Shown one piece after another: positions 9,959 to 40,253 of a stretch of 64,000 nucleotides of DNA. Numbering within the stretch: the stretch's first letter is position 1; each line of letters starts with the position of its first letter. The notes under the pieces were generated by a model that was not told where the DNA came from, made no database searches, and saw nothing but the letters and a program-made list of their open reading frames with translations. The DNA comes from Desulfatiglandales bacterium (GTDB lineage Bacteria > Desulfobacterota > DSM-4660 > Desulfatiglandales > Desulfatiglandaceae), in assembly GCA_963662465.1 (NCBI GenBank), contig OY759599.1, forward strand, positions 1,664,001 to 1,728,000. Direction: 5' to 3'. The position numbers and the translations under genes were made by a program.

Positions 9959-10645
9959 TTATTTGGCCCGAATGATCCCGGATCGTATGACAGTCTTGTC
10001 TTTGGCGATGAAGGTCCCCTTTATCTCGGTCACGCCACCTTTGTTGTCGTTAAAGTCGGCATCATAGCCAAACTCGATATACAGGGTTTTTCCTGCATCT
10101 ACGTTTGTATCGGCGGAAAGATTTCCCGCCACTTTTATGAGAGTGTCGCTCTCCACGGAACTTACGGCCTCACTGAGGGTTGAATAACAGGGATTATTGT
10201 CCCCGCACCCGTCAGCACTCACATAGGCGATTTCCTGATCCCTGTATGTTGCCGTTACGGTTATGAGGTTTTCCGGCATGGTCACGGTGGTGGCTGCCCT
10301 CGTTACATCAGCCACACGAGCCGTATCCCCGGTCCACACCGCAAAGACCTTTCCAGCGGCAGGGGCATTGGCGGAAATGTTCACCACCGTTCCCGCTTTA
10401 TATTCCCCGCCCCCTGTTCCGTTGTTTACGGTCAGAGTGTACGTGGTGACTGCTCCCTGCACCGTCCTTTGGAGCAGGTTGCCGTTGTTGTCGTAGGTAT
10501 AGGCGATGCTTCTGCCGCTGCCGTAGTCGGCGGCGGTGAGGCGGCCGGTGGTGTCGTAGGTGTAGGTGATACTGCCGGCGTGGGCCAGAGGGGCCACGAG
10601 GCAGAGCAGCAGTGTCCAAAAAAGCGATATGGCATGGTGTTTCAT
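9959..10645 (-). CDS. Small secreted mini-YD-repeat protein with an InlB-B-like repeat and the shared C-terminal domain
   Basis: Signal peptide ending APLAHA; ITYTYDTTGRLTAADYGSGRSIAYTYDNNGNL; LTVNNGTGGG...WTGD...MP repeat; CTD AYVSADGCGDNNPCY...RSGIIRAK. Confidence 0.85.
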   Translation of the reverse strand: MKHHAISLFWTLLLCLVAPLAHAGSITYTYDTTGRLTAADYGSGRSIAYTYDNNGNLLQRTVQGAVTTYTLTVNNGTGGGEYKAGTVVNISANAPAAGKVFAVWTGDTARVADVTRAATTVTMPENLITVTATYRDQEIAYVSADGCGDNNPCYSTLSEAVSSVESDTLIKVAGNLSADTNVDAGKTLYIEFGYDADFNDNKGGVTEIKGTFIAKDKTVIRSGIIRAK

Positions 10646-10812
10646 CCTGTTCGTTCCTTTCTCATCTGACGTTTTGCTCTGGCGTTGGATTCGGGCGCGT
10701 GTTTGTGGGCTCATTGTTCGCTTCCCTGTCTAAGTTTGGGGGCGATGACGTGCTTACGGCCGTCGGTGTCTTCCCAGCCATGGAAGAGTAGTTTGACCTC
10801 GGCCGGACCGCT

Positions 10813-13800
10813 TTACTGTTCATCCAGGAAGCGGTTGGCTTCCTGCCAGAACAGGGCCCAGGCCGCCGGCTTTTCGCCGCTGCTGATGTTCGCTCTAGCG
10901 GCGTCGAGCGCTCGAGACTGGGGTTGATTAAATGAAGAAGTCTGAATAACATTGGGGGTATCCGCAGCAAAAGAAACAGGCTTTACGGTCTGACTTTCAG
11001 GATTGTTGCAGAACTCATTTCTGATGTTGGCATCAGGTTTTTCTACTGCTTTGCCACCCTTTGGCTTTTCTAATTTTGCATTCCACCCAGCTTTAGGAAT
11101 ATCAGGTCGTTTACCGGCCTTTTTTAATTCAAGTTGCTTTTTGTGGATCTTATTCAAAAACTTAATGGCTCTTTCCCTGTCATTCCATTTGAATCCATCA
11201 AAGTTCTTTGCTTCAATCAAACCTCGTTGGATTATTGCCAAGATTTTCAACCTTTCTTCAAATGAAAGTCGATCCCACGCATTCAATAAATGTTCTTCGT
11301 GATCCTGGAATTCAAAATTCATGTATAGCATCATATTAAACGCAATCAGCGATAGCGTATCACTAGAGTCACCTCCATCATAAGCAAAGCGACCAGTTAT
11401 ATCTATTAATGTTAGCGGATTATTCAGGGCATATTGATATGGGTTGAGCGCCATGGGAGAATCCAGCAATGGCCATAGTGGTTCCCTGGACATAAATCTT
11501 CCTAAATTCGCATGGTAGTATCGTGCCCTCATCTGATACAGACCGTTGCTTCCCTCCTGCCGCACCTGCAAGGTACCCACAAAGGTGAAGGGTTGATCGC
11601 TGGTTCCTTCATGGGCCAGAAGTTTTCCGTAGGGGCTGTAAGCGTATGTGTCGGTAATGTCGCCGGCGGGGTTGGTGAGAAAGAGCGTATTGCCGATATG
11701 ATCGTAGTAGTAGAAAGCGACGCCATTGTCGTTGGCCGCTTCAATCAGATAAATGAGCTTTCCACCCGGAGTCAGGACGTAGAAGCGTTTCCAGGAACTT
11801 GCGGTCTCGTTGTATTCGGCCACCAGCGGCTTATTGCCCATTGCATAATTATAATAGTAATGAACAGTCGTAACATCCTGTTGCCGGGTGACCAGGTTAT
11901 TCAGGCCGTTGTAAGTCAGATTGGCATAGGCGGTGGCGGTCAGCCGGGTGGCACCGTCCCAGGTATAGGTCTGGCCGGGGGAGGCGGTCTGTCGGCCCTG
12001 ATTGTCATATGCATATCCAGCGGTCGTGACCTGGGATGCCGCATCAAATGTGAGGCTGTCCGTGCCTGACGTCAGGTACTCCGCCGGGTCCAGGGGCAGA
12101 TTGTATTCCAGCCGGGTTATCTCGCCAGCCGCGTTGTGAGTGTACTGCAAGTCGGCCAGAGCGCCGTGCTGAAGGCGGGTCAGACGGGAAGCGGCGTCCC
12201 AGGTGAAAGTGGTATTGATCCCGTTTGGGCGGGTTACTCCAGTAAGGCGGCCGTCGTTGTCGTAAGTGAAGTCGATGGTCGTTCCGGTCAGGCTGTCTGT
12301 GACGCGGGTAAGCAGGTCGCGGGCATCATAGGTGTAGGTCACGGCAAACAGATCATTGGCATAGGTGACTGTCTTGAGCCTGCCCCCGTCATCGTATGTC
12401 GCGCCGAAAGTGGTTCCGGGATTGGTGGTGGCCGTGACCTGGCCGGTTTCGTTGTAAGTGAAGGCGATGTCTTCCGCACTGAGGAGCCGGTTCTGGTTGT
12501 CATAGGTGAAATTCAGGTCCGGACCGGCGGAATACAGGCTTCGTAAGAGGTTGCCCGCATCATCATAGGTCCGGGTCTGGGTGGGACCACCCGGATAGGT
12601 AACCTGATTGAGCCTCCCCCGTGTGTCGTAGTCATACTCCCACAGCTTGCTCAGGGGGTCGGTCAGGCTCGCCAGCCGACCCATGTTGGTGTAGCTGAAA
12701 TTCCAGACACTTCCCTTGAGGTCTGTGATCCGATCCATCACGCCCAGACCGTTGCGTCGGTAGGTGGCGGCCCCGACCAGAGGGAGGGTCACTCCGGTCA
12801 GTCGGCCCGCGTTGTCGTACGAAAACGAGGTCTCCCGGGTGAGCGCGTCAGTTATTTTGGTCACGCGGGACATCTCATTCCGCGTGAAGGCGGTTTCCTG
12901 CTCCAGGGGATTTTTGATCTTACTGATGTGGCCCAGGGCGTCTCGGGTGATGGTGGTAGTCCGACCCAGGGGCGTGCTTTCGGAGGTGGGCAGACCCTCG
13001 TTGTCAAAGCCCGTGGTCCATTCATGCCCGCCGCCGTCCGTGACCTTATCCATCCATCCTCGGGAGTTGTATCCATACTGGATGGTGTTGCCGTTGGGAT
13101 CGGTGACCGACTGCTGCCGGTTCATATTGTCGTAGGCGTACTGACTTTTCTTGCCCCGGGCATTGGTGACTTCATCCACCCGGTCCATGAAATCATGTCT
13201 GAACAGGGTCTGCTTGGTGTCTGGATCGGTAATGGCGTTCAGGTTGCCGTTGGCGTCGTAGGCGTAATCATATTTTTTTCCGCGCTCATCAGTTATGGAT
13301 GTGACCTGGTTGTTGAGATCATAAGCGATCAGCACGGTCGCCCCCCCGGGCCGGGTGATCCGGGTCAGGCGCTTGTACGCATCATAGATGTAGGTGGTTA
13401 CGCCGGTGTCGGAATCCGTGGACGAGGCCAGGGTAGCGTCGTCGACATCGTAAGTATAGGTGGTCACGCCGCCTTCGGGATTGGTGGCTGTGAGGACCTG
13501 GCCGCGGTGATTGCAGGTGTAATTCCAGGTCTTGCCGGTCCGATCCGTATGGGCGGTCATATTCCCTTTGGCATCATAGGTAAACGTCTCCGATGTTTCG
13601 TCCGGATAGTCGATTTTCGTCAGATTGTAGAAGGTGAAATCTACAGTGTTGGCTGGGGTGTCGGGGTCGGCAACGGTCTGGGTCTGGGTCGTGTAGGTAA
13701 AGGTCAGGATCTTGCCGTCCGCGTTGGTAATGGCAGCCAGCTTGCCGGTGGGTTCATGGTAGGTGACCTGGGTGGCGCCGCCAGTGCGGTCGGTCATGGC

Positions 13801-15030
13801 CGTGACCTGGTTGCGGTCGTTTTTGGTCAGGACAAGCGGGTTTCCCTCGGCGTCGGTGAATTGGCTGGGCGGCACGTGGGCGTCGTTGTGGGCGTAGGCA
13901 CCGGTGCTGCTATCCGGATACGTGGCCCGGGTCACGTAGGGGTCCTCGTTATAGCTGAAAGTGGTCTCGTTGCCGTCGGCATCCTTCTGGCTGACCACCT
14001 TGATGCCGTAAAGGGGGTCGCCTTCTGCGTTCTTGTATCCCACATAGTCCCAGACATTTTGAAAATGGAAATAGGTCCCGCCTTTCGGGTTCTCCACTTT
14101 GGCCAGATTGTCGTAGTGGGTGCCGGAACTGGCGACCACGCTCCAGCGAAAGGTATGGGTGTTGCCCAGGGCATCGGTGATGGCGCGCAGGGCGGGCTGG
14201 TTGTTCATGTCTGCGGCGACTGTGTCATAAGCAAAGGTCACGGTGCGCGGATTGGCCGCGTCGGTGCGGTCGGAAATTTGGTATAAATAGCTTTGGCTGC
14301 TGAACGTGTCGTATGCAAACCGCAGCGTGCGGCCCAGGCCGTCGGTGATTTCCGCGATCCGTCCCCCATCGTAGGTGTAACTTAATTTATTGCCGTTGCG
14401 GTCCATGACATAGACAAGCTTTCCTTCCTCCCCGTAACCCGCTGCATAGTCATACACCAGGAGCCGGTCCCGCGACGGGTCCAGGATCCAGAAGCGGTTG
14501 ACTGGATTCCCGCTGGTGGCCGCGGAATAACGGATCGGCAAGGCATTTTCCCGGTAGCCTGCCGTATCCACTTCATTGAGCGCCCAGGTATCGCCGGTTT
14601 TGAGAAAGGATGCCTTTTCCCCGCCCGGGAGGATGACGTCATACCCGGATGTATCCCAGTTGACCGAGGCGGACAGGGGCGGCAGCCAGAAATAATTGGC
14701 ACCTCCATGGGTGGGGAAATAGTTTCGGGTCTCGCTCCACCAGTTGAAAATGGCCCGGTTGTATTTCAGGGCGCAGGACAGCCCCATGGGGCCGCCCAGG
14801 TTGAACAGGGGCAAGGCGTAATCAATGGACCCGCTGCCCGTGACTATGGGATCGCCACTCTTGAAATCATTTTCACCGATCAGGGTGTTGATGCTGCTGT
14901 AGCCGTTTTCGAAGTGGATTAGGGTAGCAAAAAGGGGATAGGGCCAGGCCAGGATGACCAGGGCGATTAACCCGGCCGCTCGCTGGGCGGCCCGACAAAA
15001 AAAGCTTTTTCTTTCTAATGGGTGTTTCAT
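10813..15030 (-). CDS. Secreted RHS/YD-repeat protein (DUF6531-like N-terminus, RHS core, unknown C-terminal tip)
   Basis: Signal peptide; GDPIVTGSG...LPLFNLGGPMG; many YDxxGRL repeats; core RARYY...GRFMSREP...NPYQYALNNPLTLIDITG. Confidence 0.92.
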   Translation of the reverse strand: MKHPLERKSFFCRAAQRAAGLIALVILAWPYPLFATLIHFENGYSSINTLIGENDFKSGDPIVTGSGSIDYALPLFNLGGPMGLSCALKYNRAIFNWWSETRNYFPTHGGANYFWLPPLSASVNWDTSGYDVILPGGEKASFLKTGDTWALNEVDTAGYRENALPIRYSAATSGNPVNRFWILDPSRDRLLVYDYAAGYGEEGKLVYVMDRNGNKLSYTYDGGRIAEITDGLGRTLRFAYDTFSSQSYLYQISDRTDAANPRTVTFAYDTVAADMNNQPALRAITDALGNTHTFRWSVVASSGTHYDNLAKVENPKGGTYFHFQNVWDYVGYKNAEGDPLYGIKVVSQKDADGNETTFSYNEDPYVTRATYPDSSTGAYAHNDAHVPPSQFTDAEGNPLVLTKNDRNQVTAMTDRTGGATQVTYHEPTGKLAAITNADGKILTFTYTTQTQTVADPDTPANTVDFTFYNLTKIDYPDETSETFTYDAKGNMTAHTDRTGKTWNYTCNHRGQVLTATNPEGGVTTYTYDVDDATLASSTDSDTGVTTYIYDAYKRLTRITRPGGATVLIAYDLNNQVTSITDERGKKYDYAYDANGNLNAITDPDTKQTLFRHDFMDRVDEVTNARGKKSQYAYDNMNRQQSVTDPNGNTIQYGYNSRGWMDKVTDGGGHEWTTGFDNEGLPTSESTPLGRTTTITRDALGHISKIKNPLEQETAFTRNEMSRVTKITDALTRETSFSYDNAGRLTGVTLPLVGAATYRRNGLGVMDRITDLKGSVWNFSYTNMGRLASLTDPLSKLWEYDYDTRGRLNQVTYPGGPTQTRTYDDAGNLLRSLYSAGPDLNFTYDNQNRLLSAEDIAFTYNETGQVTATTNPGTTFGATYDDGGRLKTVTYANDLFAVTYTYDARDLLTRVTDSLTGTTIDFTYDNDGRLTGVTRPNGINTTFTWDAASRLTRLQHGALADLQYTHNAAGEITRLEYNLPLDPAEYLTSGTDSLTFDAASQVTTAGYAYDNQGRQTASPGQTYTWDGATRLTATAYANLTYNGLNNLVTRQQDVTTVHYYYNYAMGNKPLVAEYNETASSWKRFYVLTPGGKLIYLIEAANDNGVAFYYYDHIGNTLFLTNPAGDITDTYAYSPYGKLLAHEGTSDQPFTFVGTLQVRQEGSNGLYQMRARYYHANLGRFMSREPLWPLLDSPMALNPYQYALNNPLTLIDITGRFAYDGGDSSDTLSLIAFNMMLYMNFEFQDHEEHLLNAWDRLSFEERLKILAIIQRGLIEAKNFDGFKWNDRERAIKFLNKIHKKQLELKKAGKRPDIPKAGWNAKLEKPKGGKAVEKPDANIRNEFCNNPESQTVKPVSFAADTPNVIQTSSFNQPQSRALDAARANISSGEKPAAWALFWQEANRFLDEQ

Positions 15031-15039
15031 GTTTCCTCC

Positions 15040-15438
15040 TTATAAAATGGAACTCTTCAAGGGTCGGCTCTTTTCAGAAATCAGCCTTGCAATTGTGAGT
15101 GGGAGTTCATCGAACAAAGCATCCTGAGCCATGCAGACGTCGGCTCGGAAATCTGGACGAAGGGCGTATATTTCCGGTCCGTAGGGGATGTAAACGATAA
15201 TTTTCATGTCAGGAGTTTGGGCTTTAATCTTCCGGCAGGCCTCCAGTCCGTCCAGACCCGGGAGCTGGACCTTCATGAGTACGAGGTCCGGGGCCAGGTC
15301 CTCCGCAAAGGCCACGGCGTCCGGACCGTTTGCGGCCATGCCCACGACAACGGCCATGCAGTTTTCTTCCAGGTGGGCCTTCAGGGCACGCCGGAAAAAG
15401 GGGTAATCATCGGCGATGAGGGTGCGGATACGGTGCAT
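15040..15438 (-). CDS. Stand-alone pseudo-receiver protein
   Basis: NarL-type REC sequence (LIADD...PDLVLMKVQLPGLDG) with Lys at the phosphoacceptor Asp. Confidence 0.75.
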   Translation of the reverse strand: MHRIRTLIADDYPFFRRALKAHLEENCMAVVVGMAANGPDAVAFAEDLAPDLVLMKVQLPGLDGLEACRKIKAQTPDMKIIVYIPYGPEIYALRPDFRADVCMAQDALFDELPLTIARLISEKSRPLKSSIL

Positions 15439-15545
15439 GTTGGATAAGGCCTTCCAAATTCAAGTTGATGCGTCAGAACTCAAATGCCGGGTTGGATCAT
15501 TTCAATCCCGGGCAGGAATGTCAATCAGGTGAATCCTGTATTTTT
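15439..15545 (-). promoter_or_regulatory. Repeated promoter cassette, copy 1 (others at 26882-26985 and 31983-32089)
   Basis: Near-identical ~105-bp block; minus strand reads TACAGGATTCACC(T/C)GA directly followed by TTGACA-17nt-AATGAT. Confidence 0.6.
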
Positions 15546-15614
15546 GAAAAAAAATAGGCTTGAAAACTTGAATCGCCCGAATGAAACGAATCGGTCGCGG
15601 CATGGTGGAAGGGT

Positions 15615-16821
15615 TTATATCAGGCCATGGGCCGCGGCATAGCGCACCAGATCGGCGGTGGTGTGGATGTTGAGCTTTTGCATGATATGGGTACGGTGGG
15701 TGTCTACGGTCTTGATGCTGATGTGCAGGATTTTGGCAATTTTCTTGTTACTGCGGCCCAATGAAATACGTTTCAGAACTTCCAGTTCCCGCGGCGTCAA
15801 TCGGGATTTGTTTGCGTTGCCTGTTGCGCCACCCGCGGACAACCGGGATGCAACCGCCGGGCTCACATAGGTTTCCCCTTTTCCCACGGTCTTTAGGGCG
15901 GTCATCAATTCGTCAAAGGTGTTTTCCTTGAGGAGAAAACCGTTCGCCCCCGCTTCCATGGCCTGTTGCAACAGGTCCGGGCCCGTGAGCATGGTCAACA
16001 GAAGAATCTTGACGGGCAGACCCTGTTCTTGAAGGATTTGCGCGATCTCCATGCCGGAAAAGAGCATGATCGTCGGCAAGAACAATACGCATCATGGCAT
16101 GGGGACCTCCACCTCGATGGCACATCCCTTTCCCTGGTCGCCCTGGATACGAATTTAACCCGCCGGGCTTCCGCATGCTTTTCCACATTGTGAAGGGCCT
16201 CCTGAACGATCCGGTGTAAATTTTCCCGATGGTCACCATCAGAAAGGCCATGCCCAGATCGCCGGGGGAAACGGGCCAAGCTATGCCAGTGACCCCCGAA
16301 GGAGTCCATTCGACCATCATGCCCGCCACAAGTCCGAGTATTCCCACGAGTACGGGTCCGGAGCCTTGCCTGTGACGAAGGAAGGCACGCACGGTCAGAA
16401 ACAGGGCTGTTCCCCCTGTACAGGCAGCCACCACAAAAAAGACCGTCAGCAGACAGGCGTAGGTTTTCAGCCCCGGAAGTAAAAAAAATGCAATGCTCAG
16501 TATGACTGAAGCAGCCATAAGCACGGTGATCCACAGCCCCCGGGAATGCGGATAAAGGTTCACGACAAATAACAGCCCGGCAGCGGGCAGAAGACAGGTC
16601 ATAACGAAGATCGCGCGCTGCACCGGGGGCGATTTGAGTCCCGCCGCGTTATACAGATACAGACTTTCCAGAACAAAAAGGGCCATATAGAGCCCCAGGA
16701 AAAGGGTAAAGGAGAGATAGTCCGGGCTTCTGACCTTCTGAGTAAACGCCATGTTATCCAAGGCCGGCTTCCAAGTCAATGCACAACTATTGCGATTCCG
16801 GCAATTGCAGTTTTGAGCTGA
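15615..16821 (-). pseudogene. Deleted duplicate of the NarL response regulator + histidine kinase pair at 32159-34941
   Basis: Colinear, near-identical DNA with four internal deletions and frameshifts. Confidence 0.9.
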
Positions 16822-17040
16822 AAGAGAAAGATATTTTTCACACGCTGGTTGCCGCCAAGCAAACGGATTTGAACAAACAGATTATTACCCGCATCGTGCG
16901 GGATCAAAAAAGCAAATTCCTTGCGACCGATTTTATCCTATAACGAAACCCCTTAAGTGCGCGGATGCATAAGCCCGGACTCGTCTGCCAGGGGACCCAA
17001 AGGCGGGATTAAGATCCGACGACGCTCCCCCAAAGGCCAC

Positions 17041-17187
17041 CCTCAATATATGGAGGTTCCACCAAATATTGAGGAGAAACCAACCCTTCTATGCGCTGCG
17101 CTACTCTCTCCTGTTAACCTAAAGACCTGTTATTAATCCATTAATCATAAATATTGCCGATTCGCGGTTGTTGGCAGGATAGTTGCA
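17041..17187 (+). promoter_or_regulatory. Orphan sigma54 enhancer/promoter cassette
   Basis: Paired CCNCNNNATATTGNGG-like boxes at 17041-17074; TTGGCAGGATAGTTGCA (GG-N10-GC) at 17171-17187; homologous to 57042-57189. Confidence 0.7.
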
Positions 17188-17334
17188 TTTCCAATTCTTG
17201 AGCAGAATATTTGCAATAACTATTCGCATGAGTTTGATCATCATACGAACGTCGGATCTTACATTTGAGCGTATCGGTGATCTGGTCAACTACAATTTAC
17301 CCGCGTTGCTCGGCGTTGTTAAAACCGACGATGC

Positions 17335-18758
17335 ACTTAGGGAATTCCCAAGAAATAAACTACCCAACTCCAGATTCAATAAGTACATCCCATTTGGGCA
17401 GTGTGTCGGAACGTTTAATTCTGTTTTCGTAAGGTTTCATTTCTTTTTTTGTAAGCCGGATTCCCTTCTTATATGCCTTTTCCACCAAAGTGACAATGGG
17501 CTTTATCCCTTTCCATGTCATCGTAGATGCCCAATTGACTGCTTTTGATATTGAATCCAATATTTCTCCGTTCCAATGTCCCTCCAATATTCCCCAACAT
17601 CTTTCAACCGGATTGTACTTACTATGATAGGGAGGATAATAAACCAGGCGGATTCGCAAACCTGTTTTGTCACTGAATTCGGTCATTCTGCGAATGAATT
17701 GAGTCCGACCGCTTGCTGAATTCGGACCATTGTCAAGATTGATAACCAACTCGTTTATATGAAGATAGGTAATTCTGTTTTTTTCCCACCACATCTCTAA
17801 ACAGTCAACGATGAAATCACTTGTTTCAAAAGATGTGCCGAAAAAAATAGAAAGCATTCCGCTCAAAACGTCAAGAATACCGTACGGAACCAATTTCATT
17901 TCGGGATTCATATCATGGTCTTCAGCTTTCTTCGCTTCCCGATCCCGTGACTTTCCGTTTCTTGAGAACTCGCCTATATTCACTTTTGCCTTGGCATCAA
18001 TAGAAATCCGATGAGAGTTGGGATTCTCATCAGAGTCACGGTTTGCCTTCCATACATTTTCAAATATTTCATCGACCTGTTTTATCTTTTTCGCAGGTTT
18101 GGATTTCAGGACTCGTTTCAGGTTGTATCCCATGCGGTTCAACATGTTGATCAGAGTGTTGTTAGAGGGAAGATCCTCACCGTCGTATCCTTTCTCATCA
18201 ATCAGTGCCTTTTTGAGAGCTTTTCCTGTAATTCTTGTATATGTGATAGAGCTTTTCATGGCAGGGTCCGCCTGAGTTTGAGGTTCTGCAAAGGATATTA
18301 TGTCTTCTTTAATACCGGGAATCGTGTCTTCTGTTTTCTTTTTTCCCCGTCCCTCAAAATTATCCATGCATCTGATCCCGCTTTCGGCTTCTTTAAGGCC
18401 TTTTGTTACACACTCTCTCCCCCATCCCATCTCCCGTTCGGCTTTGTATGCACTCCCGTTGAAATATTTCCTGGTAATGTCGGCCTGATATGCTCTTCTT
18501 TTGTAACCAGTCAGTCGTCTGCATGCATCTTTTATCAGATTTTTTGTTTCTCCGTTCATTCTTTTTACCCGTTACTTTTTTCAATGTATGAATTTCATGT
18601 CTTTCATACATTATGCTCATACCACCTCCTTCAATTTTTGTCCCCTCATTTTTTTAAATTGCGTTTCAATGCAAATAAAGATTCTGATGCATTTATCTTT
18701 TCAGGATAACATTATGTTTGAAATAATGCGTAGGTTATTTCTTGGGAATTCCCTAAGT
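17335..18758 (-). mobile_element. ISAzo13-family insertion sequence, apparently intact
   Basis: Perfect 24-bp inverted repeats ACTTAGGGAATTCCCAAGAAATAA at 17335-17358 and 18735-18758. Confidence 0.9.
17360..18559 (-). CDS. ISAzo13-family DDE transposase
   Basis: ISIDAKAKVNIGEFSR, DNGP, YYPPYHSKYNPVERCW motifs. Confidence 0.9.
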   Translation of the reverse strand: MNGETKNLIKDACRRLTGYKRRAYQADITRKYFNGSAYKAEREMGWGRECVTKGLKEAESGIRCMDNFEGRGKKKTEDTIPGIKEDIISFAEPQTQADPAMKSSITYTRITGKALKKALIDEKGYDGEDLPSNNTLINMLNRMGYNLKRVLKSKPAKKIKQVDEIFENVWKANRDSDENPNSHRISIDAKAKVNIGEFSRNGKSRDREAKKAEDHDMNPEMKLVPYGILDVLSGMLSIFFGTSFETSDFIVDCLEMWWEKNRITYLHINELVINLDNGPNSASGRTQFIRRMTEFSDKTGLRIRLVYYPPYHSKYNPVERCWGILEGHWNGEILDSISKAVNWASTMTWKGIKPIVTLVEKAYKKGIRLTKKEMKPYENRIKRSDTLPKWDVLIESGVG

Positions 18759-18832
18759 AATACCCCCTTCCCAATAAAACGATAGAGCCTTCTCTCTTAG
18801 GAGAGGTGAGTAGGATCATAGTAAATTGTACT

Positions 18833-18980
18833 CGCAAAAAGCTTGCCAACAAGCGAAGAAAGCTCAGGAATGTCTAATATGTCTGTAATAACAGTGGATT
18901 AAATTAACAGGATGGCGCAGCGGAAAAGTCTGGAATGATCGCTTTCCCTCAGCATACTGCAGTTCCACCAAACATTGAGG
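18833..18980 (-). promoter_or_regulatory. Minus-strand sigma54 promoter with nearby paired UAS boxes
   Basis: Minus strand TTGGCAAGCTTTTTGCG (18849-18833); boxes at 18947-18980; 18860-18901 is an inverted near-copy of 37570-37611. Confidence 0.6.
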
Positions 18981-19059
18981 GCTAACCAATGATATCAACT
19001 TTCTTTATGCTTGCTATCATTTCCTACAATAAGTTGTTGCCCTGATATCTGTTTCACGT

Positions 19060-21930
19060 CTATTTGGCCCGAATGATCCCAGATCGTATGACAGTCTTGT
19101 CTTTGGCTGTGAATGTCCCCTTTATCTCAGTCACGCCGCCTTGGTTGTTGTTAAAGTCGGCATCATAGCCAAACTCGATATACAGGGTTTTTCCTGCATC
19201 TACGGTTGTATCGGCGGAAAGATTTCCTGCCACTTTTATCAAAGTGTCGCTCTTCACGGAACTTACGGCCTCACTGAGGGTTGAATAACAGGGATTATTG
19301 TCCCCGCACCCGTCAGCACTCACATATGCCATATCCTGATCCCTGTAGGTCGCTGTCACTATCACATTTGCCGCCGGCATGGTAATGGTTGTGGGGGTGC
19401 TGTTCATATCCGCCACGTGGGCCGTGTCTCCGGTCCACTGCTCAAAGACCTTGCCTGCCGCCGGATTATGAGCCGAAATATTCACTACTGTTCCTGCTTC
19501 ATACTGGCCGCTCCCCGTGCCATTCACAACGGTCAGAGCAAACTGTTTCTCCGGATCGTCCTTGTATGTGGCTGTCACCGTCACATCGGCCGCGGGCATG
19601 GTGACTGTGGTATTCGCGCTGTTGAAATCCGCGACAAAACCGGCGCCCCCGGTCCATTGGTCAAAGATCCGGCCCGCGGACGGGGCGTTGGCCGATATGT
19701 TTACCTCTGCTCCCGCTTCATACGGGCCGCTTCCCGTGCCATTCACCACATTCAGGGTGAAAAGTTCGACTACCGGGGCGCATTGTGAAAACTCGGAAGT
19801 GCTGTTATACGTCTGACCGCTGTATACGGCGGGTTGGGTGGCAGTGGCTGTGATGAAATGTCCCGGTGGAACTGCGACCGAAAACACCACATCAAAAGTG
19901 CCCTGCCCATCCAATTCCGTCTGGATCTCGGTGGCGCCCAGAAACGTTTCGCCTTCCCCGTACCCGGAACCATCGCAGGAAGGGTTGGCAAAAAATTCCA
20001 ACCGAAAACGACGGTCCGTCCCGAGGGAGCTGTTGAGTGATCCTTTGATTTTAGTGATGCTGCCGTCGCTCCCTGCTAAAGTCACGGTTGGAAAATTCTG
20101 AAGATCGTTTCCACCATTATCCGAATCATCCAGGTCATTTAAGGTAACGCCTCGTAATCCTCCCAGAATTTCAGGGATGGGCAACAGGTCTATTCCCAAT
20201 TGAGCATTTGCAAAAATGGCATTGCCCTTGATATCCCAGCCGTCGCCGCTGTCAACGAGTACACCTGCTTTGCCGTTGAAGGCGATGGTGTTTCCCTCTA
20301 TCAAACTGCCGGTGCCGTCTGCCGCATAGACACCGTCTGCGGAGTTGCCCAGGTCTCCTGAGCCGCCTTGGTCCGTCCCAATACGGTTGTTCTGGATCAC
20401 GTTGCCTTCCGTGCCTGCCCCTTCGATTCGCACCCCACAGCCGTCATTGCCCGATATGATGTTATCCTGGATCGTATTGTAGGCCACATCGCCGTCAAGA
20501 AGCACGCCCGAGCCGTTACCCAATTTCTTTGTCCCAGCAGGGTCCGTTCCGATGAAGTTGTTCTTGATTTGGTTGTTCTTGGGGCTGGGATCGGGGTTCC
20601 CTAAATCAGGCCCCCCACTGCCTGCACCCTCTATCCAAACGCCGGTCTCAGAATTGCCCGAAATCACGTTGGCCTCGACAATATTGTCCGAGTTGTTGAA
20701 AATGCGCACCCCAGCCTCTCCGTTGGGGAGCTTCTGGGTTCCGGCCTTGTTCGTACCAATGTAGTTGCTTTCAACACGATTTTTGCCGCTGACAGGTTCG
20801 CCTTGAGGCTCTCCGGAGATCTGGACGCCGTGCTTGCCATTGCCGGATATGATATTGTTCTTGATGCTGTTCTCGGATAGAAAAGAAAAAATGGTTACGC
20901 CGTTTTCGCCGTTAGGGACGGCCAAGGCGCCTGAGACGTCCGTGCCGATGGTGTTGTCTTCCACCCGGTTGGATGCCGACCCGTCGCCAATAATCACGCC
21001 ATGACCATTACCCGAGATGACGTTGTTGCGGATGACATTCTGAGCGGAATTTTCGATCCAGATGCCCACATCGTTGCCCATTGGGCCGTCACCCGCTGCA
21101 TTCGTGCCGACGTAACTGCCTTCAACCGTATTGCCGTCCCCCGTTTTCAGGATGATTCCCATCTCGGGAAAGCCGTTGATAACGAAACCTTTCACCGTGC
21201 TGGCGCCGGCGGTAATCACCAGACCATCGCCGTCGGCGCCGATGCCGGCCCCATTCAACTCGACCTTACCGCCTCCGGGCTGGGTGGCGCCGTCAATGAA
21301 CACGGGGTCGGTCACCTCCGGCAGGGGAGTGGCGGGCTGGATCTTGGGGACGCCCTCACCAGGAATGTCGAAGGTGATGGTGTCCTGCCCCGCCCTGGCG
21401 TTGGCTTCCTGGATCGCGGCCCGAAGGGTGCATTCGTTACCGCCATCCACGATGTTGCCCGTAAAACACATGTTGTCATTCGGATCGGCATCATCGTCGT
21501 CGCCCGTGGAATTGACCTGAAGTCCAAATGTTAAATAGTAGGTATGAGTCGTATAATAGCAGCAGCAGGCCTGCTCGACATTGTTCTGCCCGCACTCAAG
21601 ATAAAGCGAACCGTCAGGAAAATCCCCGGAAAGTGTAAGGACAGAATAGTCCACATAACAGGTGTTGAGATCGGTCTCTGTCACCCGGATTCCGTCTATC
21701 GTGTCATTCACTGAAAAAGACGTAGTTTTGGTTACGTGTCCTTCGCCTGGCACAGAATGAACATTGATCCAATTTCCGTCCTTCAGTTTCTGAAAAATAA
21801 CGGTGCTGCGGCAGTCATTACTCCAACCAACCCTGTAGGTGGCGTCAACGCTTCCAACCCACTTGGATGCATTTCCAATTGCCGGAACACACAGGAGAAC
21901 CAACCCCAGTAAAAAGGCCACTTGTCTCAT
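19060..21930 (-). CDS. Secreted CSLREA-like + right-handed beta-helix protein with two InlB-B-like repeats and the shared C-terminal domain
   Basis: Signal peptide; VNSTGDD...CTLRAAIQEAN; repeated NxISGN / NxIGT; TSEFS; CTD ending RSGIIRAK; RBS AAGGAGG. Confidence 0.88.
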   Translation of the reverse strand: MRQVAFLLGLVLLCVPAIGNASKWVGSVDATYRVGWSNDCRSTVIFQKLKDGNWINVHSVPGEGHVTKTTSFSVNDTIDGIRVTETDLNTCYVDYSVLTLSGDFPDGSLYLECGQNNVEQACCCYYTTHTYYLTFGLQVNSTGDDDDADPNDNMCFTGNIVDGGNECTLRAAIQEANARAGQDTITFDIPGEGVPKIQPATPLPEVTDPVFIDGATQPGGGKVELNGAGIGADGDGLVITAGASTVKGFVINGFPEMGIILKTGDGNTVEGSYVGTNAAGDGPMGNDVGIWIENSAQNVIRNNVISGNGHGVIIGDGSASNRVEDNTIGTDVSGALAVPNGENGVTIFSFLSENSIKNNIISGNGKHGVQISGEPQGEPVSGKNRVESNYIGTNKAGTQKLPNGEAGVRIFNNSDNIVEANVISGNSETGVWIEGAGSGGPDLGNPDPSPKNNQIKNNFIGTDPAGTKKLGNGSGVLLDGDVAYNTIQDNIISGNDGCGVRIEGAGTEGNVIQNNRIGTDQGGSGDLGNSADGVYAADGTGSLIEGNTIAFNGKAGVLVDSGDGWDIKGNAIFANAQLGIDLLPIPEILGGLRGVTLNDLDDSDNGGNDLQNFPTVTLAGSDGSITKIKGSLNSSLGTDRRFRLEFFANPSCDGSGYGEGETFLGATEIQTELDGQGTFDVVFSVAVPPGHFITATATQPAVYSGQTYNSTSEFSQCAPVVELFTLNVVNGTGSGPYEAGAEVNISANAPSAGRIFDQWTGGAGFVADFNSANTTVTMPAADVTVTATYKDDPEKQFALTVVNGTGSGQYEAGTVVNISAHNPAAGKVFEQWTGDTAHVADMNSTPTTITMPAANVIVTATYRDQDMAYVSADGCGDNNPCYSTLSEAVSSVKSDTLIKVAGNLSADTTVDAGKTLYIEFGYDADFNNNQGGVTEIKGTFTAKDKTVIRSGIIRAK

Positions 21931-21944
21931 TGGCAACCTCCTTA

Positions 21945-22180
21945 TCGAAATGAATCACGGGCCGACTGTCCATAAAGACATACTTGATCTTCCGGCCGCT
22001 CTGATCAGAAGAACACAGGGTGAAAAAATCGCCGAATTTTTCGCTTTTGATGGTGGTTTCCATGGGTTAGATGTTGACAAAAATCATTTCATTTTGCAAG
22101 CAAAAATTCGAAAATTTTTTCTCAAGAATTTCAGAACGTTAAAAACCCAAAGACCCGAGACGCACACGTTTACTTGAGAA
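21945..22180 (-). pseudogene. 5' remnant of the unclassified transposase family (same type as 38885-39545)
   Basis: METTIKSEKFGDFFTLCSSDQSGRKIKYVFMDSRPVIHFD aligns with MEISTKSENFGNFFTLCSPDDRNRKIKYVFIDRRPVIHFD. Confidence 0.75.
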
Positions 22181-22186
22181 ACCGCC

Positions 22187-22377
22187 ATGCAGTTATTTCA
22201 GATATTCTTCCTATGGAAAAGAGGCGCCTACACCAACGGGGAACTTGGAGACATCTTCGGTATTACCTATACGGTCGTCAGCCATATCGTGAAGCAGGTG
22301 AAAGAGAGGCTGAAAACAGATCAAAATTTTCAGGCGAAGTGCAAAACACTCAATTCACAAATCAAGATGATGACCCC
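22187..22377 (+). pseudogene. C-terminal remnant of a REP-associated tyrosine transposase (RAYT)-like gene
   Basis: HTH-like YTNGELGDIFGITYTVVSHIV...LNSQIKM followed by TGACCCC. Confidence 0.55.
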
Positions 22378-22439
22378 ATTTCCCGTTCGTTCTGGTCGGT
22401 CCATAATGCACTTCCGCGCGCCTGAACCTGAAAGCCCCC

Positions 22440-22916
22440 CTATTTCCCCCGCAGGGTCCCCGATCGAATAATGGTTTTGTCTTTCGCAACGAACTGGCCG
22501 TTGATTTCGGTGACACCGATGTTGGATTCAAAGGCGGAATCATACCCCCACTCAAAGTAGAGGGTTTTTCCGGTATCCACGGTGGCGCCCTCAAAACTTT
22601 CCGCAGCCACCTTGATGAGGGTATTGTCCACGGCATCGCTGATCGCTTCAGCCAGGGTGTGGTAGCACGGCGCATTCCCCCCGCAGTTCCCCGTACTCAC
22701 ATATGCGGTTGATGCGAGCGCCTGCGTCACGTCCCTTACAATCAGGTTTCCGCCCGCATCATAGCTGTATGCAATACTTTTGTCACCGCCGTAATCGGCT
22801 TTGGCCAGGCGGCCGGCATTGTCATAGGTATAGGTGATGTTCACAGCCTGGGCCGGAAGCGCCGCCAGCAGGCAGATGCCCATAAGCAGGCATGTGATGA
22901 TACATTTTGTTTTCAT
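22440..22916 (-). CDS. Small secreted mini-YD-repeat protein with the shared C-terminal domain (start may be 22931)
   Basis: Signal peptide ending LPAQA; ITYTYDNAGRLAKADYGGDKSIAYSYDAGGNL; CTD AYVSTGNCGGNAPCY...RSGTLRGK. Confidence 0.85.
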   Translation of the reverse strand: MKTKCIITCLLMGICLLAALPAQAVNITYTYDNAGRLAKADYGGDKSIAYSYDAGGNLIVRDVTQALASTAYVSTGNCGGNAPCYHTLAEAISDAVDNTLIKVAAESFEGATVDTGKTLYFEWGYDSAFESNIGVTEINGQFVAKDKTIIRSGTLRGK

Positions 22917-22956
22917 AATGATCGTCTCCATTTGATGGTCAATCGTTCGTTTTCGT

Positions 22957-25259
22957 TCATCTACCCTGCAATGCAGGCACCAGCCAATAGGTAACCGGTT
23001 TCCCGCAAATGGGTCGGAGCACCTGCTCGAGCATCTCTATGCGTTTCTTCCGCTTTTCATCCTCATCCACCTCACGGTGCACAGCCGCTATTTGGGCATC
23101 CATTTCCATGTCCTTGTGAATGTCTTGCAAAATATCGGCGTGAAAGCCGCTGTAAGTCGGAGGGAATCCGTTTTGAGCCAGTCCAGCTAATATTTGCCTG
23201 CGAATTTTCTTCTTTTCTTCTTTCCACTTATTGTACTCTTCTTCTCGCTTTCTTTTCGCTTCTTCTTGCTTGATGAGCTTGTTACGGGCTCTTTTCACCA
23301 GTTCTCTGAGAGTTCTGGCCTCGGTCACCAGATCCTCGGGGTGCACTGAAGACGTAATTCCAATAAAGGCCTTCGGATTCGCTATGATTTCCGCTGCAAT
23401 TTCATCCATCTCGACCAGTCTCTCTGCGTCTGCCCACTCTTGAAAACCGGCGTCACTACCGTAACCATCTATCGGTTCTATGGGCGACCTCATGCCTTGG
23501 GGCAAACATTCCTTCCAGACATCCATACCACGACCAAAATACCCTTCGCTGATGACAACGGAAACATCCAGCCCATCGGCATCCAGGAGATTGACCGGAT
23601 CGGAGTAGGCGTAGTTGTACACATTGAGGCCTGCCGGGTTGGTCAAATCCGGCCACTCCGGCTCAGGCGAAATGAAATGACCGCTCTCGGGGTGCTAGAA
23701 GCGGGCGCCATGGCGATAGAGGCTGTCCACACCCAAAACCGCGTGGCACCCGAGTTGTCCCAGGAATTGAAATGGCGGCGTTTCGGTCCCTCCGGGTTGA
23801 CCATTCGGCCGTATGGCGTGTAGCCGAAGCGCCCGGTAACGGCACCGTCTCCGTCGGTGGTAGCCACAGTGGAGCCCCGCTGATCGAAATGGTAATACAC
23901 CGCTTCGCTGGTTCCGGCAGTGGGGATGCGAATAGAATAGATAAGCCCCCATCCCGGGGCCACGGCCTGAATCCACTGTTGTCGGCCCTCGGTGATTTGC
24001 AGGGGCAATTGTGTGCTGATGGCGGTGCAGTAGGCATAGGAGACGGTTTCTCCGGACAGGGTGGTCTCTACAAGACGGTTCAGGCCGTTATAGCGGTTTA
24101 CTGCATCGTTGATGCCCGTGAGGTGCGAAAGCCCGTTCCATGTACAGGTCAGGGAAGGGGCCTTGGTCATTCGTCCTCGAAGGTCCATAGCCGTAATCCG
24201 CCCCGGCCACCTGACTCATGGCGTTATACGGGAGAGTCTGCCGGTTTTCCGTAAGGGTATCAACCACATCCACGGGCAAATCGCCCGTTACGGAGGTGAT
24301 CCGTCCGATCGCGTCGAAAGTATAATTTACGTCAGTGAAGTCACCGTCCTGAATGGAGGTGCGTTTGCCGGACCCCTCATTGTCCCAGACGAAAGTGCTC
24401 TTTACGTCGTTCTTGCGGGTGATTTGGGTGATTCGGCCGGCGGCGTCGTAGCTGAAGCCGGCGGATCCCAGGCCCAGGGAATCGGTCATTGAAGCCAGAT
24501 AACCTGTGTCGGGGTCATAGGTGTAGATGAAGGTGATGTTATCGTTGGCGTCCGTCTGTTTTACGACCACGGGAATGAACATGCTGCCGCCGGTGCCGTG
24601 AACCTGCACACTGTCGTACTCCGATGTGTAGGGAATGGTTCCCCGGGGAGTGGTCATGGCGGTGAGGCGGTTGCTGCCGTCATAGGCAAATGTGGCAGCG
24701 TTGCCTTCGGGGTTGACCATGGATGTGAGATATCCGCCGGTGTAGGAAAATGTCCAGGACAGCGCCGGCGTGGTGTCCGTCGTAATGGCGGTCACCACCT
24801 ATTTATCGCTCACTTTCTGCATGGTAAAATCGATCTTTTGGCCGGAGGAACTCTCAATAGAAACCAGTCCGGGAAAGGACTTGCCGGCAAATGCGTTGTA
24901 GGTATAAGTCAGCGAGTTGCCGGCGCGATCCATTTTCTTGCGACACAGGTACAAAAAGTCGTTGTAGTTCTCAAAATAGAAAACCGTATTGTCCGCGGGA
25001 TTTTTCAAAAAAAAGTGATCCCCCGCAGCCTTGAGCTCATAGGGCCAGGCAGATAGAACAGGGGAAGGGTCATCAACTCCTCTCCGGTGGCGGCGGACAC
25101 CGGGTCTCCCACTTTGGGGGTCTTGTCCGGCTGGTGGTTGAGACCGTCAGCGGTGTTGCACATCCCGCTTGAGGCGAAACCCAGAATCAACATCAGGATC
25201 AACCAGCGGGTGAACAGGGCAGGGTTTGCAAATTTGCGAATTTTCATGGTTAGCCTCAT
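22957..25259 (-). pseudogene. Degraded secreted RHS protein (signal peptide, DUF6531-like region, YD repeats, core, helical tip)
   Basis: Fragments in several frames: GDPVSAATGE..LPLFYLPGP; YD repeats; YYHFDQRGS; GARF*HPESGHFISPEPEWP...YAYSDPVNLLDADG with an in-frame TAG at 23695-23697. Confidence 0.85.
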
Positions 25260-25391: not shown

Positions 25392-26168
25392 TTAGTCAAA
25401 GGGATTGGCGGGAATAAGTCCGTGAGCAATGGCCAGGGCCACGGCATGGGTGGTGTTTACGGTGTCGAGCTTGGCGCTCGAATTCTTGAAGTGAAAGCGC
25501 ACCGTACTCTCGCTTATGGAAAGAATCATGGCAATTTCAGCGGCAGTTTTGCCCTGGGCCGCCCAGAGCAGGCATTCACATTCCCGAAGGGATAACTCTA
25601 TTCGAATTGTCTTGTGCACCAGCGCTTTCCAGCGTTCATGAAAAAATACGGCTCCGGCGTACGCGGTATTCGTCACCAAGGCCAATTGCATGTGCAGTTT
25701 TATCGGATTGTGATACCGCGACATCAGGATCAGGCCGCAGCGACGATCCGGCGTGTCCAAAGCGCAGATGAGAGAATAAGCCACGGAAGGGTCATCCAGA
25801 ACCTCCTCCGGTCGTCCCGGAGGGGGCTTGCCGGTGACGGATTTAAAGGCTTCATAGGGCGTGAAAGGCCCCTGATCGCCCGTAACCAACCGAATCAATA
25901 TAGGGTTTCCTCCAAAAATGCGGCTTTTGATCAGGCCGGCCAGGGCCTTTTGATCCGTGCAATGCAGCAACACGCTTTCAAAAAACCTGCCTACATCCGG
26001 TCGCTTGTGGGGTATGCTGGGAATGGAGGTATAGATGAAGCCCTTGAAATGCAAGTTTTCCAAGAAATCCGAAAATTCCCGGCAAAGCCCGGCCATATCA
26101 GAGGCCTTCACAGCCCGCTGAATAAGGTCATTTAAAATGCGTTCTTTTCTTATTTTGATGCGTATCAT
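25392..26168 (-). CDS. LuxR-family regulator with an autoinducer-binding-like N-terminus (LuxR solo)
   Basis: LSLRECECLLWAAQGKTAAEIAMILSISESTVRFH HTH; no luxI gene nearby. Confidence 0.8.
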   Translation of the reverse strand: MIRIKIRKERILNDLIQRAVKASDMAGLCREFSDFLENLHFKGFIYTSIPSIPHKRPDVGRFFESVLLHCTDQKALAGLIKSRIFGGNPILIRLVTGDQGPFTPYEAFKSVTGKPPPGRPEEVLDDPSVAYSLICALDTPDRRCGLILMSRYHNPIKLHMQLALVTNTAYAGAVFFHERWKALVHKTIRIELSLRECECLLWAAQGKTAAEIAMILSISESTVRFHFKNSSAKLDTVNTTHAVALAIAHGLIPANPFD

Positions 26169-26356
26169 GAGAGAACCTTGAATAGGATCGTTGTTTGTCA
26201 GCTGTATTGAACATTGTAGGTTGACGACTGGCTCGATCCATTTTTATTTCATCCCTGCTTCCAGTGAAAAGGTCCCGCATTTTTGCCAAAAGCCTGGGAA
26301 ATGTCAAGAGGACAACGGGGGAAGAGCATGCTAAACAGTCCACTTGGGAGGAAGAG

Positions 26357-26985: not shown

Positions 26986-26993
26986 AAGGAGAA

Positions 26994-27264: not shown

Positions 27265-30200
27265 TCACCTGGCGCGAATCGTCCCGGACTGAATCACGGT
27301 CCGGTCCTTCGCCGTAAACGCTCCCTCAATCTCCGTAACCCCGCCCGTATTGCTGGTGAATTCGGCATCATAGCCAAACTCGATAGACAGGGTCCCGGCA
27401 GGGTCCACCACCGTATTTCCGGCTATATTGCCCGCCACCTTGATGAGGGCGTTGTCCTCTGCCTTGCTCACGGCCTCGCCGAGGGTGGCATAACAGGGGG
27501 CCTTTCCATTGCATGTGCCGTCCGCGCTCACATACACGATCTGCTGGTCCTTGTACGTGGCGGTGACCGTCACATTGGCCTCCGGCATGGTTACGGTGGT
27601 GCCGGCACTGTACACGTCCGCCACATGGGGCGTGTCTCCGGTCCATTGATCAAAGAAACGGCCAGCGGCAGGATCATCAGCGGCGATGTTCACGACCTCG
27701 CCCGCTTCATATGCCCCGCTGCCGGTACCGTTGTTTACGTTCAGGGTGTAATTCATGTCGATATTCGCCCGGCCCGGTGTGGGCTTTTCGGCGTCATATC
27801 CGCAGTTGGGATCCCAGTCAAAGGGGAGATCCATATCGAAGCTGTCCTTGTCCCGACCCAGGCTGTTACCCGGATCCGGTTTCGCAAGAGTCTCATCCGG
27901 GGTCCCAAACCGTACATCATCCCGCTGATTTCCCTCGGCATCCAGCAATGTCGCCGAAGCCCCGCTGCCTCCCAGCAAATTGGCGCCCTCGGGCCAGTCA
28001 ATATCCTTGCCGACCGTGTCCTGGTATCCTTGAAGGTGAATGACAAGAAAGCCCTTTGACTCAAGCACACCATCCCAGTCCGGGCCGCTCATGGGCAGCG
28101 TGAATGTCGATTCGCCATCGTTGAAGACGACTTGCCATCCCCCCAAAGATTGATCGAAGGCGCCCGGGTTTGCAATTTCCACCCATTCCCGGGGAACGGC
28201 GTCCTCCGTTGGTGGACAGATTTCGTTAAGCACGGGCCGGCGGTCGGGTTTTTCGGGAGATATGAACGAGTAAACAAGAGGGTACTGGTCGCCACCGGTG
28301 GTGATGTTGCCATTATCGGTATGGGGCGTCAGGGTGTCTCCCAGTCCATCACCGTTCGTATCCTCCCCGATATAGGAATTCCACTCGTTGCCGCCGATTT
28401 TCGGCCCGCCGATGATATTTGTTTCATCCACCGGCGGTTGGAGGTTCCACGTATTCAAGGCCGTGGCAATGGCATTTTTGTCATTTTGAAGGCTGTTGTC
28501 ATAGATGCGGTTGCCTGTTGACGACCCCAGGTCAAGCCCCGATTCTTCGTTCCGCATTATTTTGTTTTGGGTAATGGTCATGTTGGTGCAACCAGAGAGC
28601 CGCATGCCGTCAAGCCGGTTGTCAAGAAATGCATTTTTTTCAATCGTACCCGCGTCAAGAGCCTCGCAGACGAGGCCGCCGAGGAAATTGGAACGGAAGG
28701 TATTCCTTTCAATCGTGCCCGGCGCTGTCGCGCGCTCGCGGTAAAGGCCCATGCCGTCGTTATCCAGAAACGCGTTGTAGGTATAGCGGATATTTGAGGC
28801 GGATTGTTCTACGACGCCATGATTACCACCGTTGTCGAATTGGCTGTAGATAACGACATGGTCTGATCCCTTGTTGATCCGAAGGCCCGTTTCCCCGCTC
28901 TCCTGAAAACGGGTACGGTTCACCTCGACATTCTGAACATCATCCAGTAAAGCGCCCAGGGGGCATCGGATGATATAACATCTGTTCATGCGCCCGGACG
29001 CGACCTCTCCTCGAACCTGTACCCCGATCTCCCCTGCGTCTTCAAGACGAACATGTTCCAGCCCGAAGTTGTCAGTGCCCTGGTTGTCTATCAGGATGGG
29101 GGAATTGGTGTAAACGCCGCCCTCGATCACGTGGCCTTCTCCCTCCGGACGAAGAACGACACCGGCGGTTCCATTGCCGTCCGCGTTGCAGTTAACCAGA
29201 TCGCAATTCTGATGAACTTCATGCCAGTCTTCATAAGCAGAGCCTATATGGAAGCCGGCTTTCTGGTTGTTTGCGGCGTCACAGGTAATAAAACGTAAAT
29301 TGTCCGCCCCTCCACAATGATATCCGTAAATGTTTTCAGAAGATACGTTGCTTTCCAGGGCGATGTTGCTTGCCGACCAGGAGTATAGGCCGCTGCCGTC
29401 GCCGTCCACCGGTGCGGGTCCATCGCATTTCCGCATGGTATTGTTCTCAATTGTGGAATCGTTTACCCGGTCAAGACGGATACCGATGCGAGCCGTGTCG
29501 ATCGCGTTGTCGTCGATTTTCGCTCCGGTCAGACCAGCGCAATCGATAGCAACGCCGGTCAACCCATTAAATTGATTGTTAATGATTTGAGGATCGGCAC
29601 AGTTCCTGACCTGGAGGGCATTTTCACACTCGGAAAATTGATTGTTCCGGATATCTATCTGGCCCGATTTTCCAGCGACGACCACGATATTCCCTTCCCC
29701 CGTGATGCGCTCGAAAATATTGCCTTCGATTTTCAACGGACTCGTGGTGCTCAACTGATTAAAAACGCCCATGCTGCTCCAGTCGTGGACATGATTGTTC
29801 AGCAGATGGACGTGGCGCAGACGGTTGGAACTGCCCAGAACATAGCCCTCTCCATTGCGAAACTCGCACTCCTTTATCTCAAGAAGCGGTGTTTCCGTGG
29901 CGTCTTCATATTCGGTGGTCTTTATATGAAGCTGCGAGGTGCCTTCGAAAACGCAATTGTCAAAGGTCGCCGGGCGGTTGAAGGAATCCAGCCAGGTGCT
30001 GTATTCCCCGCAGTTCTTGAACCGGCTGTTGGTGATTTGAACTGCCTCAATAGAGCTGTCTTCGGTGGGGTCTCCAATACGCAAGCCCGCTTCACAGTCT
30101 TCAAGAACCAGCATGTTAATCTCAAAAAAAGACGAACAGGCATTTATGCTGACGGCGGCCCTACCAATGGCATTTCGAATGGTATTGTTATAAAAGTTAA

Positions 30201-40163: not shown

Positions 40164-40253
40164 AAAGCATAGGAATTTCCATTTTTGATTTGGCATATCA
40201 AATAGTTGTTGCAGTGATGGCATTAAATGTGTCAAAAAAAGCACATTATGCAT

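What the first reader, a model, noticed from the sequence alone, without database searches (positions are those of the whole stretch)
9959..25259. Repeated two-gene module: signal-peptide RHS protein followed by a secreted mini-YD partner carrying the CTD
Seen twice with divergent sequences: RHS 10813-15030 with partner 9959-10645, and RHS pseudogene 22957-25259 with partner 22440-22916. Each partner's mature N-terminus is about 1.5-2 YD repeats (ITYTYDxxGRLxxADYGxxxSIAYxYDxxGNL), followed by the CTD. The RHS proteins themselves lack the CTD. The position normally held by a cytoplasmic immunity gene is occupied by this exported protein, and no PAAR, VgrG or TcB gene is present. Inference: the partner adds its beta-hairpins to the RHS shell (strand complementation) and so tethers or exports the RHS capsule through its CTD, forming a split RHS display or delivery system.
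Basis: partly seen in the sequence, partly recalled or inferred. Interest (0 to 1): 0.85.

Follow-up and report, generated by a model that had tools for sequence, protein, structure and literature searches.

The report
Split RHS capsule with donor hairpin
A group of secreted RHS toxin-type capsule proteins is one beta-hairpin unit short, and a neighbouring gene encodes that kind of unit fused to a surface or adhesion module; this suggests a two-protein capsule that is closed and tethered by a snap-in partner, although binding has not been shown.

Summary
All 7 single-hairpin genes of this genome lie directly behind an RHS gene. New here: partnered RHS proteins lack one canonical ~40-residue YD unit just before the core and carry a 7-13 residue, usually proline-containing linker instead. 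Among RHS loci picked without regard to neighbours, 5 of 8 short-type against 0 of 29 full-length proteins had such a gene nearby (p 1.3e-4); across other bacteria 6 of 7 against 0 of 23. The hairpin's tail is interchangeable (this genome's CTD, Ig/FN3/IPT/PKD domains, a lipoprotein, a CFI-box-CTERM in one natural fusion), so the CTD is not essential to the system, and the partner is not a stand-in for an immunity gene. Best reading: the hairpin fills the gap in the shell and tethers the capsule (about 0.62). Seven literature searches and three look-ups of earlier scan notes found no description.

The parts
10813..15030 (-). Short-type RHS protein, 1405 aa: signal-like N-terminus, YD shell, Rhs core, variable C-terminal region
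   Evidence: AlphaFold2 model of residues 35-1214, mean pLDDT 89.9, matches Rhs shells at E 1e-58
12064..12099 (-). Proline-containing linker (about residues 978-989) standing where full-length RHS proteins have a ~40-aa YD unit
   Evidence: no strand and a pLDDT dip to 70 around here in the model
11392..11640 (-). Rhs-associated core; second catalytic-motif Asp kept, first motif has Glu in place of Asp
   Evidence: TIGR03696 residues 1131-1213; family consensus
10816..11391 (-). Variable C-terminal region, 192 aa, presumed cargo; no Pfam family
9959..10645 (-). Partner 1, 228 aa: signal-like segment, one YD unit (about 10460-10576), Flg_new_2 (about 10238-10441), CTD (9962-10231)
22957..25259 (-). 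RHS pseudogene, several frames and an internal deletion; short type by its linker region
22440..22916 (-). Partner 2, 158 aa, intact: signal-like segment, one YD unit (22707-22841), CTD (22443-22712)
19060..21936 (-). Secreted beta-helix protein with two Flg_new_2 domains and the same CTD; its 3' cassette is 84% identical in DNA to that of partner 1; not part of the RHS pair
27265..31920 (-). Secreted beta-helix/LTD protein with Flg_new_2 and the same CTD; not part of the RHS pair

Best explanation
A two-chain RHS capsule. Both proteins leave the cytoplasm by Sec (inferred from signal-like N-termini). The RHS chain folds into a YD shell around its variable C-terminal cargo but lacks one four-strand YD unit next to the core; a short linker spans the place (sequence shown; the gap in the wall is inferred). 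The partner's single YD unit pairs into that gap, completing the wall (inferred), and so couples the capsule to whatever the partner carries: a surface anchor, a sorting tail such as this genome's CTD, or an adhesion stalk (domains shown; function inferred). The capsule and its attachment module can thus be exchanged independently.
For: Anchor-to-core distance is bimodal: 89 of 90 scored members of the window protein's family are short, 81 of 87 scored library representatives are long. Loci picked by RHS core alone: 5 of 8 short against 0 of 29 long had a hairpin gene nearby, p 1.3e-4 (24 of 61 ORFs dropped for a weak anchor); other bacteria 6 of 7 against 0 of 23, p 1.2e-5 (39 of 69 dropped; 2 of the 6 were found through the hairpin gene). 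Two apparent exceptions were then resolved by a genome search: a lipoprotein-like gene ending in one YD unit directly upstream of the Clostridiaceae RHS, and a hairpin gene on another contig for L206. In this genome the RHS that carries the CTD itself is full-length and has no partner. Of 40 hairpin genes found in the phylum sample, 28 have an RHS gene or core fragment within about 3 kb, 7 lie within about 620 bases of a contig end, 5 have none seen (hand tally). P0195 joins hairpin, CFI-box-CTERM and a short-type RHS in one reading frame. The partnered state changes at least 11 times on a tree of 96 core regions.
Against: No direct evidence of binding. In the model of the natural fusion the strand after the linker looked the same as in the monomer, so the readout set beforehand was not met. 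The partner hairpins are not specifically more like the missing unit than like other repeats (best rank in 5 of 49, 2.7 expected). Independent-pair test not significant (7 pairs, same way 3.3 on average, opposite 0, p 0.125-0.5). L208 is short without a partner seen; L210 has the nearest hairpin gene about 14 kb away; L121, L134, L292 and L294 lack a neighbouring unit rather than the usual one, so the exact register is not fixed. The Clostridia replication had little power: 17 long without partner, 1 short with only 1.7 kb upstream, 23 of 41 dropped. Repeat alignments slip easily.
Confidence: 0.62

Rival explanations
1. Door or safety plug: the hairpin fills the gap, but its job is to keep the cargo inside until the capsule is pulled off or triggered; the gap is the exit. 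Tethering is secondary.
For: The gap lies near the core, where solved T6SS Rhs shells are described as fully closed (bioRxiv 2024.02.26.582050, passages); teneurins have a shell opening for the C-terminus (PMC13018210, passage). Many partnered loci, including both in the window, leave little or no room for an immunity gene. Some partners have only a short tail (L115, L128, L037).
Against: Most partners carry Ig-like, anchor or sorting-type tails; several loci have a separate small downstream gene as well.
Confidence: 0.15
2. The partner binds the RHS protein, or acts with it, but not in the gap: the short type is a closed shell with one unit fewer, and the linker or a free sheet edge is the docking site.
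For: YD repeat number varies among RHS proteins; naive alignment can put the last long hairpin in the register of the missing unit; no position-specific similarity.
Against: A plain deletion would need no longer linker, yet the short type has a 7-13 residue extension in unrelated lineages, and the partner is itself one YD unit.
Confidence: 0.17
3. The hairpin genes are RHS debris or recombination cassettes that picked up signal peptides and tails, with no functional tie.
For: The window is a mosaic of duplicated cassettes and IS elements; orphan RHS modules are common near RHS genes.
Against: Intact signal-like segment directly before the unit in seven paralogs, kept intact beside a decayed RHS, found upstream, downstream and on another contig, and seen beside none of the 52 long-type RHS proteins of the two test sets.
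Confidence: 0.06

Closest known systems
T6SS Rhs effectors (RhsA 7q97, RhsP 8h8a, Tse5 8cp6, S. bongori and Advenella Rhs 8qja-8qjd)
   Same: YD shell fold (Foldseek E about 1e-58; VIA Z up to 28 for the relative P0195), Rhs core, variable C-terminal region.
   Different: Signal-like N-terminus instead of PAAR/VgrG, none of which is in the genome; one YD unit short; a separate hairpin gene. Those shells are one chain and closed at the core end (passages).
Tc/ABC toxin BC component (YenB-YenC, TcdB2-TccC3)
   Same: An RHS shell built from two polypeptides (PMC4267844 passage; PDB titles).
   Different: There two large chains continue the sheet end to end and dock on an A subunit; here the second chain is one ~40-aa unit that would insert inside the sheet of the first.
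Sec-exported RHS polymorphic toxins, WapA-like and teneurin-like proteins
   Same: Signal peptide plus RHS repeats is a listed export class (PMC3482391, passages); TLPs lack obvious delivery machinery (PMC13018210, passages).
   Different: Anchoring and adhesion domains are described within the toxin chain; no separate single-YD partner was seen in the passages read.
Donor-strand complementation of chaperone-usher pili (recalled, no call)
   Same: An incomplete beta structure is completed in trans by strands of another chain.
   Different: Ig fold and polymer there; a YD shell and a one-to-one capsule-anchor pair here. A working analogy only.

Membership tests
RHS/YD-repeat proteins | Array of YD repeats forming a shell | tested here: met
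RHS/YD-repeat proteins | Rhs-associated core before a variable C-terminus | tested here: met
   TIGR03696 58.9 bits over cut-off 32.5; C-termini differ among loci
RHS/YD-repeat proteins | Bipartite DPxG...DPxG autoprotease | tested here: inconclusive
   second Asp nearly invariant, first motif has Glu in the family consensus; cleavage not testable
Polymorphic toxin systems | C-terminal toxin domain | tested here: inconclusive
   0 of 32 C-terminal regions matched a toxin family in Pfam; 2 DUF6765 and 1 Kelch-like hit
Polymorphic toxin systems | Cognate immunity gene downstream | tested here: inconclusive
   no room in the two window loci; small intervening genes in 7 other loci; function untested
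T6SS Rhs effectors | PAAR or VgrG link and a T6SS in the genome | tested here: not met
   no TIGR03361 or PF05488 match in G000
Tc/ABC toxin BC pair | Large TcB subunit continuing the shell, plus TcA | tested here: not met
   partner is 158-228 aa with one YD unit; no such genes among the ORFs around the loci
Donor-strand-type complementation | Partner strands hydrogen-bond into a gap of the acceptor | tested here: inconclusive
   gap inferred from sequence; fusion model uninformative; no complex model obtained
Named C-terminal sorting domains | CTD matches a curated family | tested here: inconclusive
   no NCBIfam or PDB sequence match; Atlas lead DUF1565 at 0.76 only

The most novel reading that the evidence does not exclude
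A widespread, undescribed assembly principle for RHS capsules: a single YD unit works as a plug-in connector that completes the shell in trans and lets bacteria of many phyla attach one capsule to exchangeable anchors, sorting tails or adhesion stalks, answering how Sec-exported RHS proteins without dedicated machinery are displayed, and possibly how they are opened.
Probability: 0.55. Interest if true: 0.88.

Novelty: new variant of a known kind. Interest (0 to 1): 0.74.

Why it matters
How RHS/YD capsules that have no T6SS or Tc machinery are positioned and opened is an open question (stated for teneurin-like proteins in PMC13018210, passage). A sequence mark (one YD unit missing, linker present) that predicts a partner gene makes that question directly testable with a 40-residue peptide and one shell. 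It would also give a function to many small 'YD repeat-containing' genes, and a natural peptide-into-shell coupling could serve as a protein tag.

Tried and rejected
A model of residues 26-1225 of the natural fusion P0195 gave a four-strand hairpin module at pLDDT 68-77 with an unchanged strand pattern after the linker; no coordinates are returned, the hairpin had no alignment depth and the core was cut off, so it neither supports nor refutes docking. Plain MAFFT alignments slipped register across the repeats; a first classifier based on a hairpin hit after the anchor mislabelled several loci and was replaced by the anchor-to-core distance. Position-specific similarity test negative. Search for further N-terminal fusions found none among 34 other hits. 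The profile search of representatives returned only long RHS proteins, so the size of the hairpin family was not measured; the word-based search returned 3 other proteins. No RNA holder listed. Rejected: CTD as an essential part (tails vary); partner as replaced immunity gene; T6SS or Tc delivery. Literature: searches found no paper describing the pair; only open-licence full texts were searched and no supplements were read. Earlier scan notes: nothing relevant.

Full report
Observation. The intact RHS (10813-15030, 1405 aa) has a signal-like N-terminus by eye, 14 YD stretches and an Rhs core. An AlphaFold2 model of residues 35-1214 is confident (mean pLDDT 89.9) and matches solved Rhs shells. 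Each partner is signal-like segment, one YD_repeat_2x unit, optionally Flg_new_2, then a 90-residue CTD. The second RHS is in several frames and lacks a long internal part compared with its paralog, yet its partner is intact. The genome has no VgrG or PAAR match and three secretin genes.

Genome-wide. Seven hairpin genes exist and all seven follow an RHS gene on the same strand; of nine RHS loci the two without one are a 2576-aa protein that ends in the CTD itself and a 1971-aa protein whose N-terminus I read as SpvB/TcB-like from recall. The CTD occurs in 31 ORFs, at the C-terminal end in 29 by reading the table, 25 with a hydrophobic N-terminal stretch. It matches no curated family or solved sequence; a likeness to the N-cap of beta-helix proteins is recalled and only weakly echoed by an Atlas lead. 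It behaves like a sorting or anchoring tail of this lineage; that is inference.

The missing unit. Thirty-seven RHS representatives chosen from a library search without genomic context align cleanly as a long-loop hairpin (A), a ~40-residue YD unit (H), then a short-strand segment (B) before the core. In partnered RHS proteins H is absent and 7-13 residues, usually with proline, join A to B. The partner's N-terminal module is one such unit. Measured as distance from A to the core, 89 of 90 scored members of the window protein's family are short and 81 of 87 scored representatives long. In the monomer model the linker region has no strand and lower confidence; no coordinates were returned, so a hole was not seen.

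Test across genomes. A phylum search of 401 genomes with a core-region alignment listed 150 of 272 matches; 60 stretches around long ORFs not fetched before were taken. With anchor score at least 35 (24 of 61 ORFs dropped), 5 of 8 short and 0 of 29 long proteins had a hairpin gene within 3 kb downstream or 4.5 kb upstream (p 1.3e-4); thresholds 30 and 40 gave the same picture. In 78 loci from all bacteria: 6 of 7 against 0 of 23 (39 of 69 dropped; two of the six were retrieved through the hairpin gene). Partners occur there in Nitrospira, an actinobacterium, Sulfidibacter, Spartobacteria and proteobacteria, and hairpin genes lie upstream of large secreted or RHS genes in Paenibacillus and Lachnospiraceae. 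Searching the genomes of two exceptions found a lipoprotein-like gene ending in one YD unit directly upstream of the Clostridiaceae RHS, and a hairpin gene on another contig for L206. L208 stays unexplained, L210 has a hairpin gene about 14 kb away. From the partner side, 28 of 40 hairpin genes of the phylum sample have RHS sequence within about 3 kb, 7 sit at contig ends, 5 show none (hand tally). Forty stretches from a Clostridia sample of 300 genomes gave 17 long proteins without partner and one short protein with too little flank; two near-identical loci just under the threshold are short in a shifted register and have an upstream gene ending in one unit. Kin are not independent: on a tree of 96 core regions the short state changes at least 13 times and the partnered state 11 times, but only 7 independent pairs exist on well-supported branches, going the same way 3.3 times on average and never the opposite way (p 0.125-0.5).

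What the tail is. Pfam and NCBIfam scans of 35 and 19 sequences (partner tails and P0195) show TIG/IPT, PKD, FN3, CARDB, FG-GAP, thrombospondin-3, Flg_new_2 and choice-of-anchor D domains, and many tails with no family. P0195, a member of the window protein's own family, holds signal-like segment, hairpin, CFI-box-CTERM (70.8 bits, cut-off 40) and a short-type RHS in one frame; it comes from one contig and could be a read-through or a calling artefact. In 7 loci another gene, often a small membrane protein, lies between RHS and hairpin gene. The C-terminal regions are variable, and 0 of 32 match a toxin family, so toxicity is presumed, not shown.

Results against or neutral. No complex model could be obtained. 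The model of the fusion folded the hairpin as four strands at pLDDT 68-77 but left the strand after the linker as in the monomer: inconclusive. Partner hairpins do not single out position H among the repeats of long proteins. Four partnered proteins lack a neighbouring unit instead of H.

Mechanism. Shown: gene pairing, the length deficit with a linker, its association with a hairpin gene, exchangeable tails, no T6SS. Inferred: Sec export, insertion of the four strands into the wall near the core, tethering through the tail. I put insertion with tethering at 0.62, insertion mainly as a door at 0.15, binding elsewhere at 0.17, debris at 0.06.

Comparison and novelty. It is an RHS/YD protein by repeats, core and fold; not a T6SS effector and not a Tc BC pair. 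Two-chain shells are known from Tc toxins, where large chains join end to end (PMC4267844, passages). I read passages of PMC13018210, PMC3482391, bioRxiv 2024.02.26.582050 and PMC4267844; none of the passages describes a single-YD partner, and seven searches found no such paper. Subscription papers and supplements were not seen. The donor-strand analogy to pili is recalled. Verdict: a new variant of a known kind, widespread, with a specific and cheap decisive test.

Noticed in passing
G000 whole genome, e.g. window 9962-10231, 19063-19332, 27268-27543: An unnamed ~90-aa C-terminal domain with a Cys pair sits on 31 ORFs, mostly signal-bearing; related tails appear in other genomes of the phylum (e.g. 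L136). Candidate lineage-specific sorting signal.
   Followed up: partly
window 46621-49905; G000 3473662-3483882 and 7702749-7703582: A second short C-terminal tail with a Cys pair and beta-helix-like repeats recurs on other secreted proteins of this genome; no NCBIfam match for the window protein.
   Followed up: no
window 11392-11500: In this RHS family the first motif of the bipartite autoprotease has Glu where Asp is usual; cleavage may differ.
   Followed up: partly
window 15040-16779, 25392-27000, 31951-34686: Response-regulator, LuxR-type and 7TM-DISM kinase genes are duplicated (94-97% DNA identity) upstream of the CTD-bearing genes, some copies broken; suggests a shared regulated cassette.
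   Followed up: partly
G000 3465894-3473633 (L005): Full-length RHS of 2576 aa with about 780 residues after the core, ending in FN3-like repeats and the CTD; too large to be enclosed, so the chain must leave the shell.
   Followed up: partly
L099 1-8443: Chloroflexota RHS in which a non-RHS segment directly precedes the H unit, B and core within one ORF; another rearrangement at the same junction.
   Followed up: no
L086 3073-7117: Hairpin at the very C-terminus of a long ORF downstream of an RHS that seems to end shortly after its core.
   Followed up: no
L004 3937-4527: C-terminal region of the paralog at G000 7805091 is a run of acidic Trp-containing repeats with a basic tail, unlike an enzyme.
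   Followed up: no
window 17360-18559 and 38166-53948: ISAzo13-type transposase inside the locus and a dense cluster of transposase-like ORFs further on.
   Followed up: no
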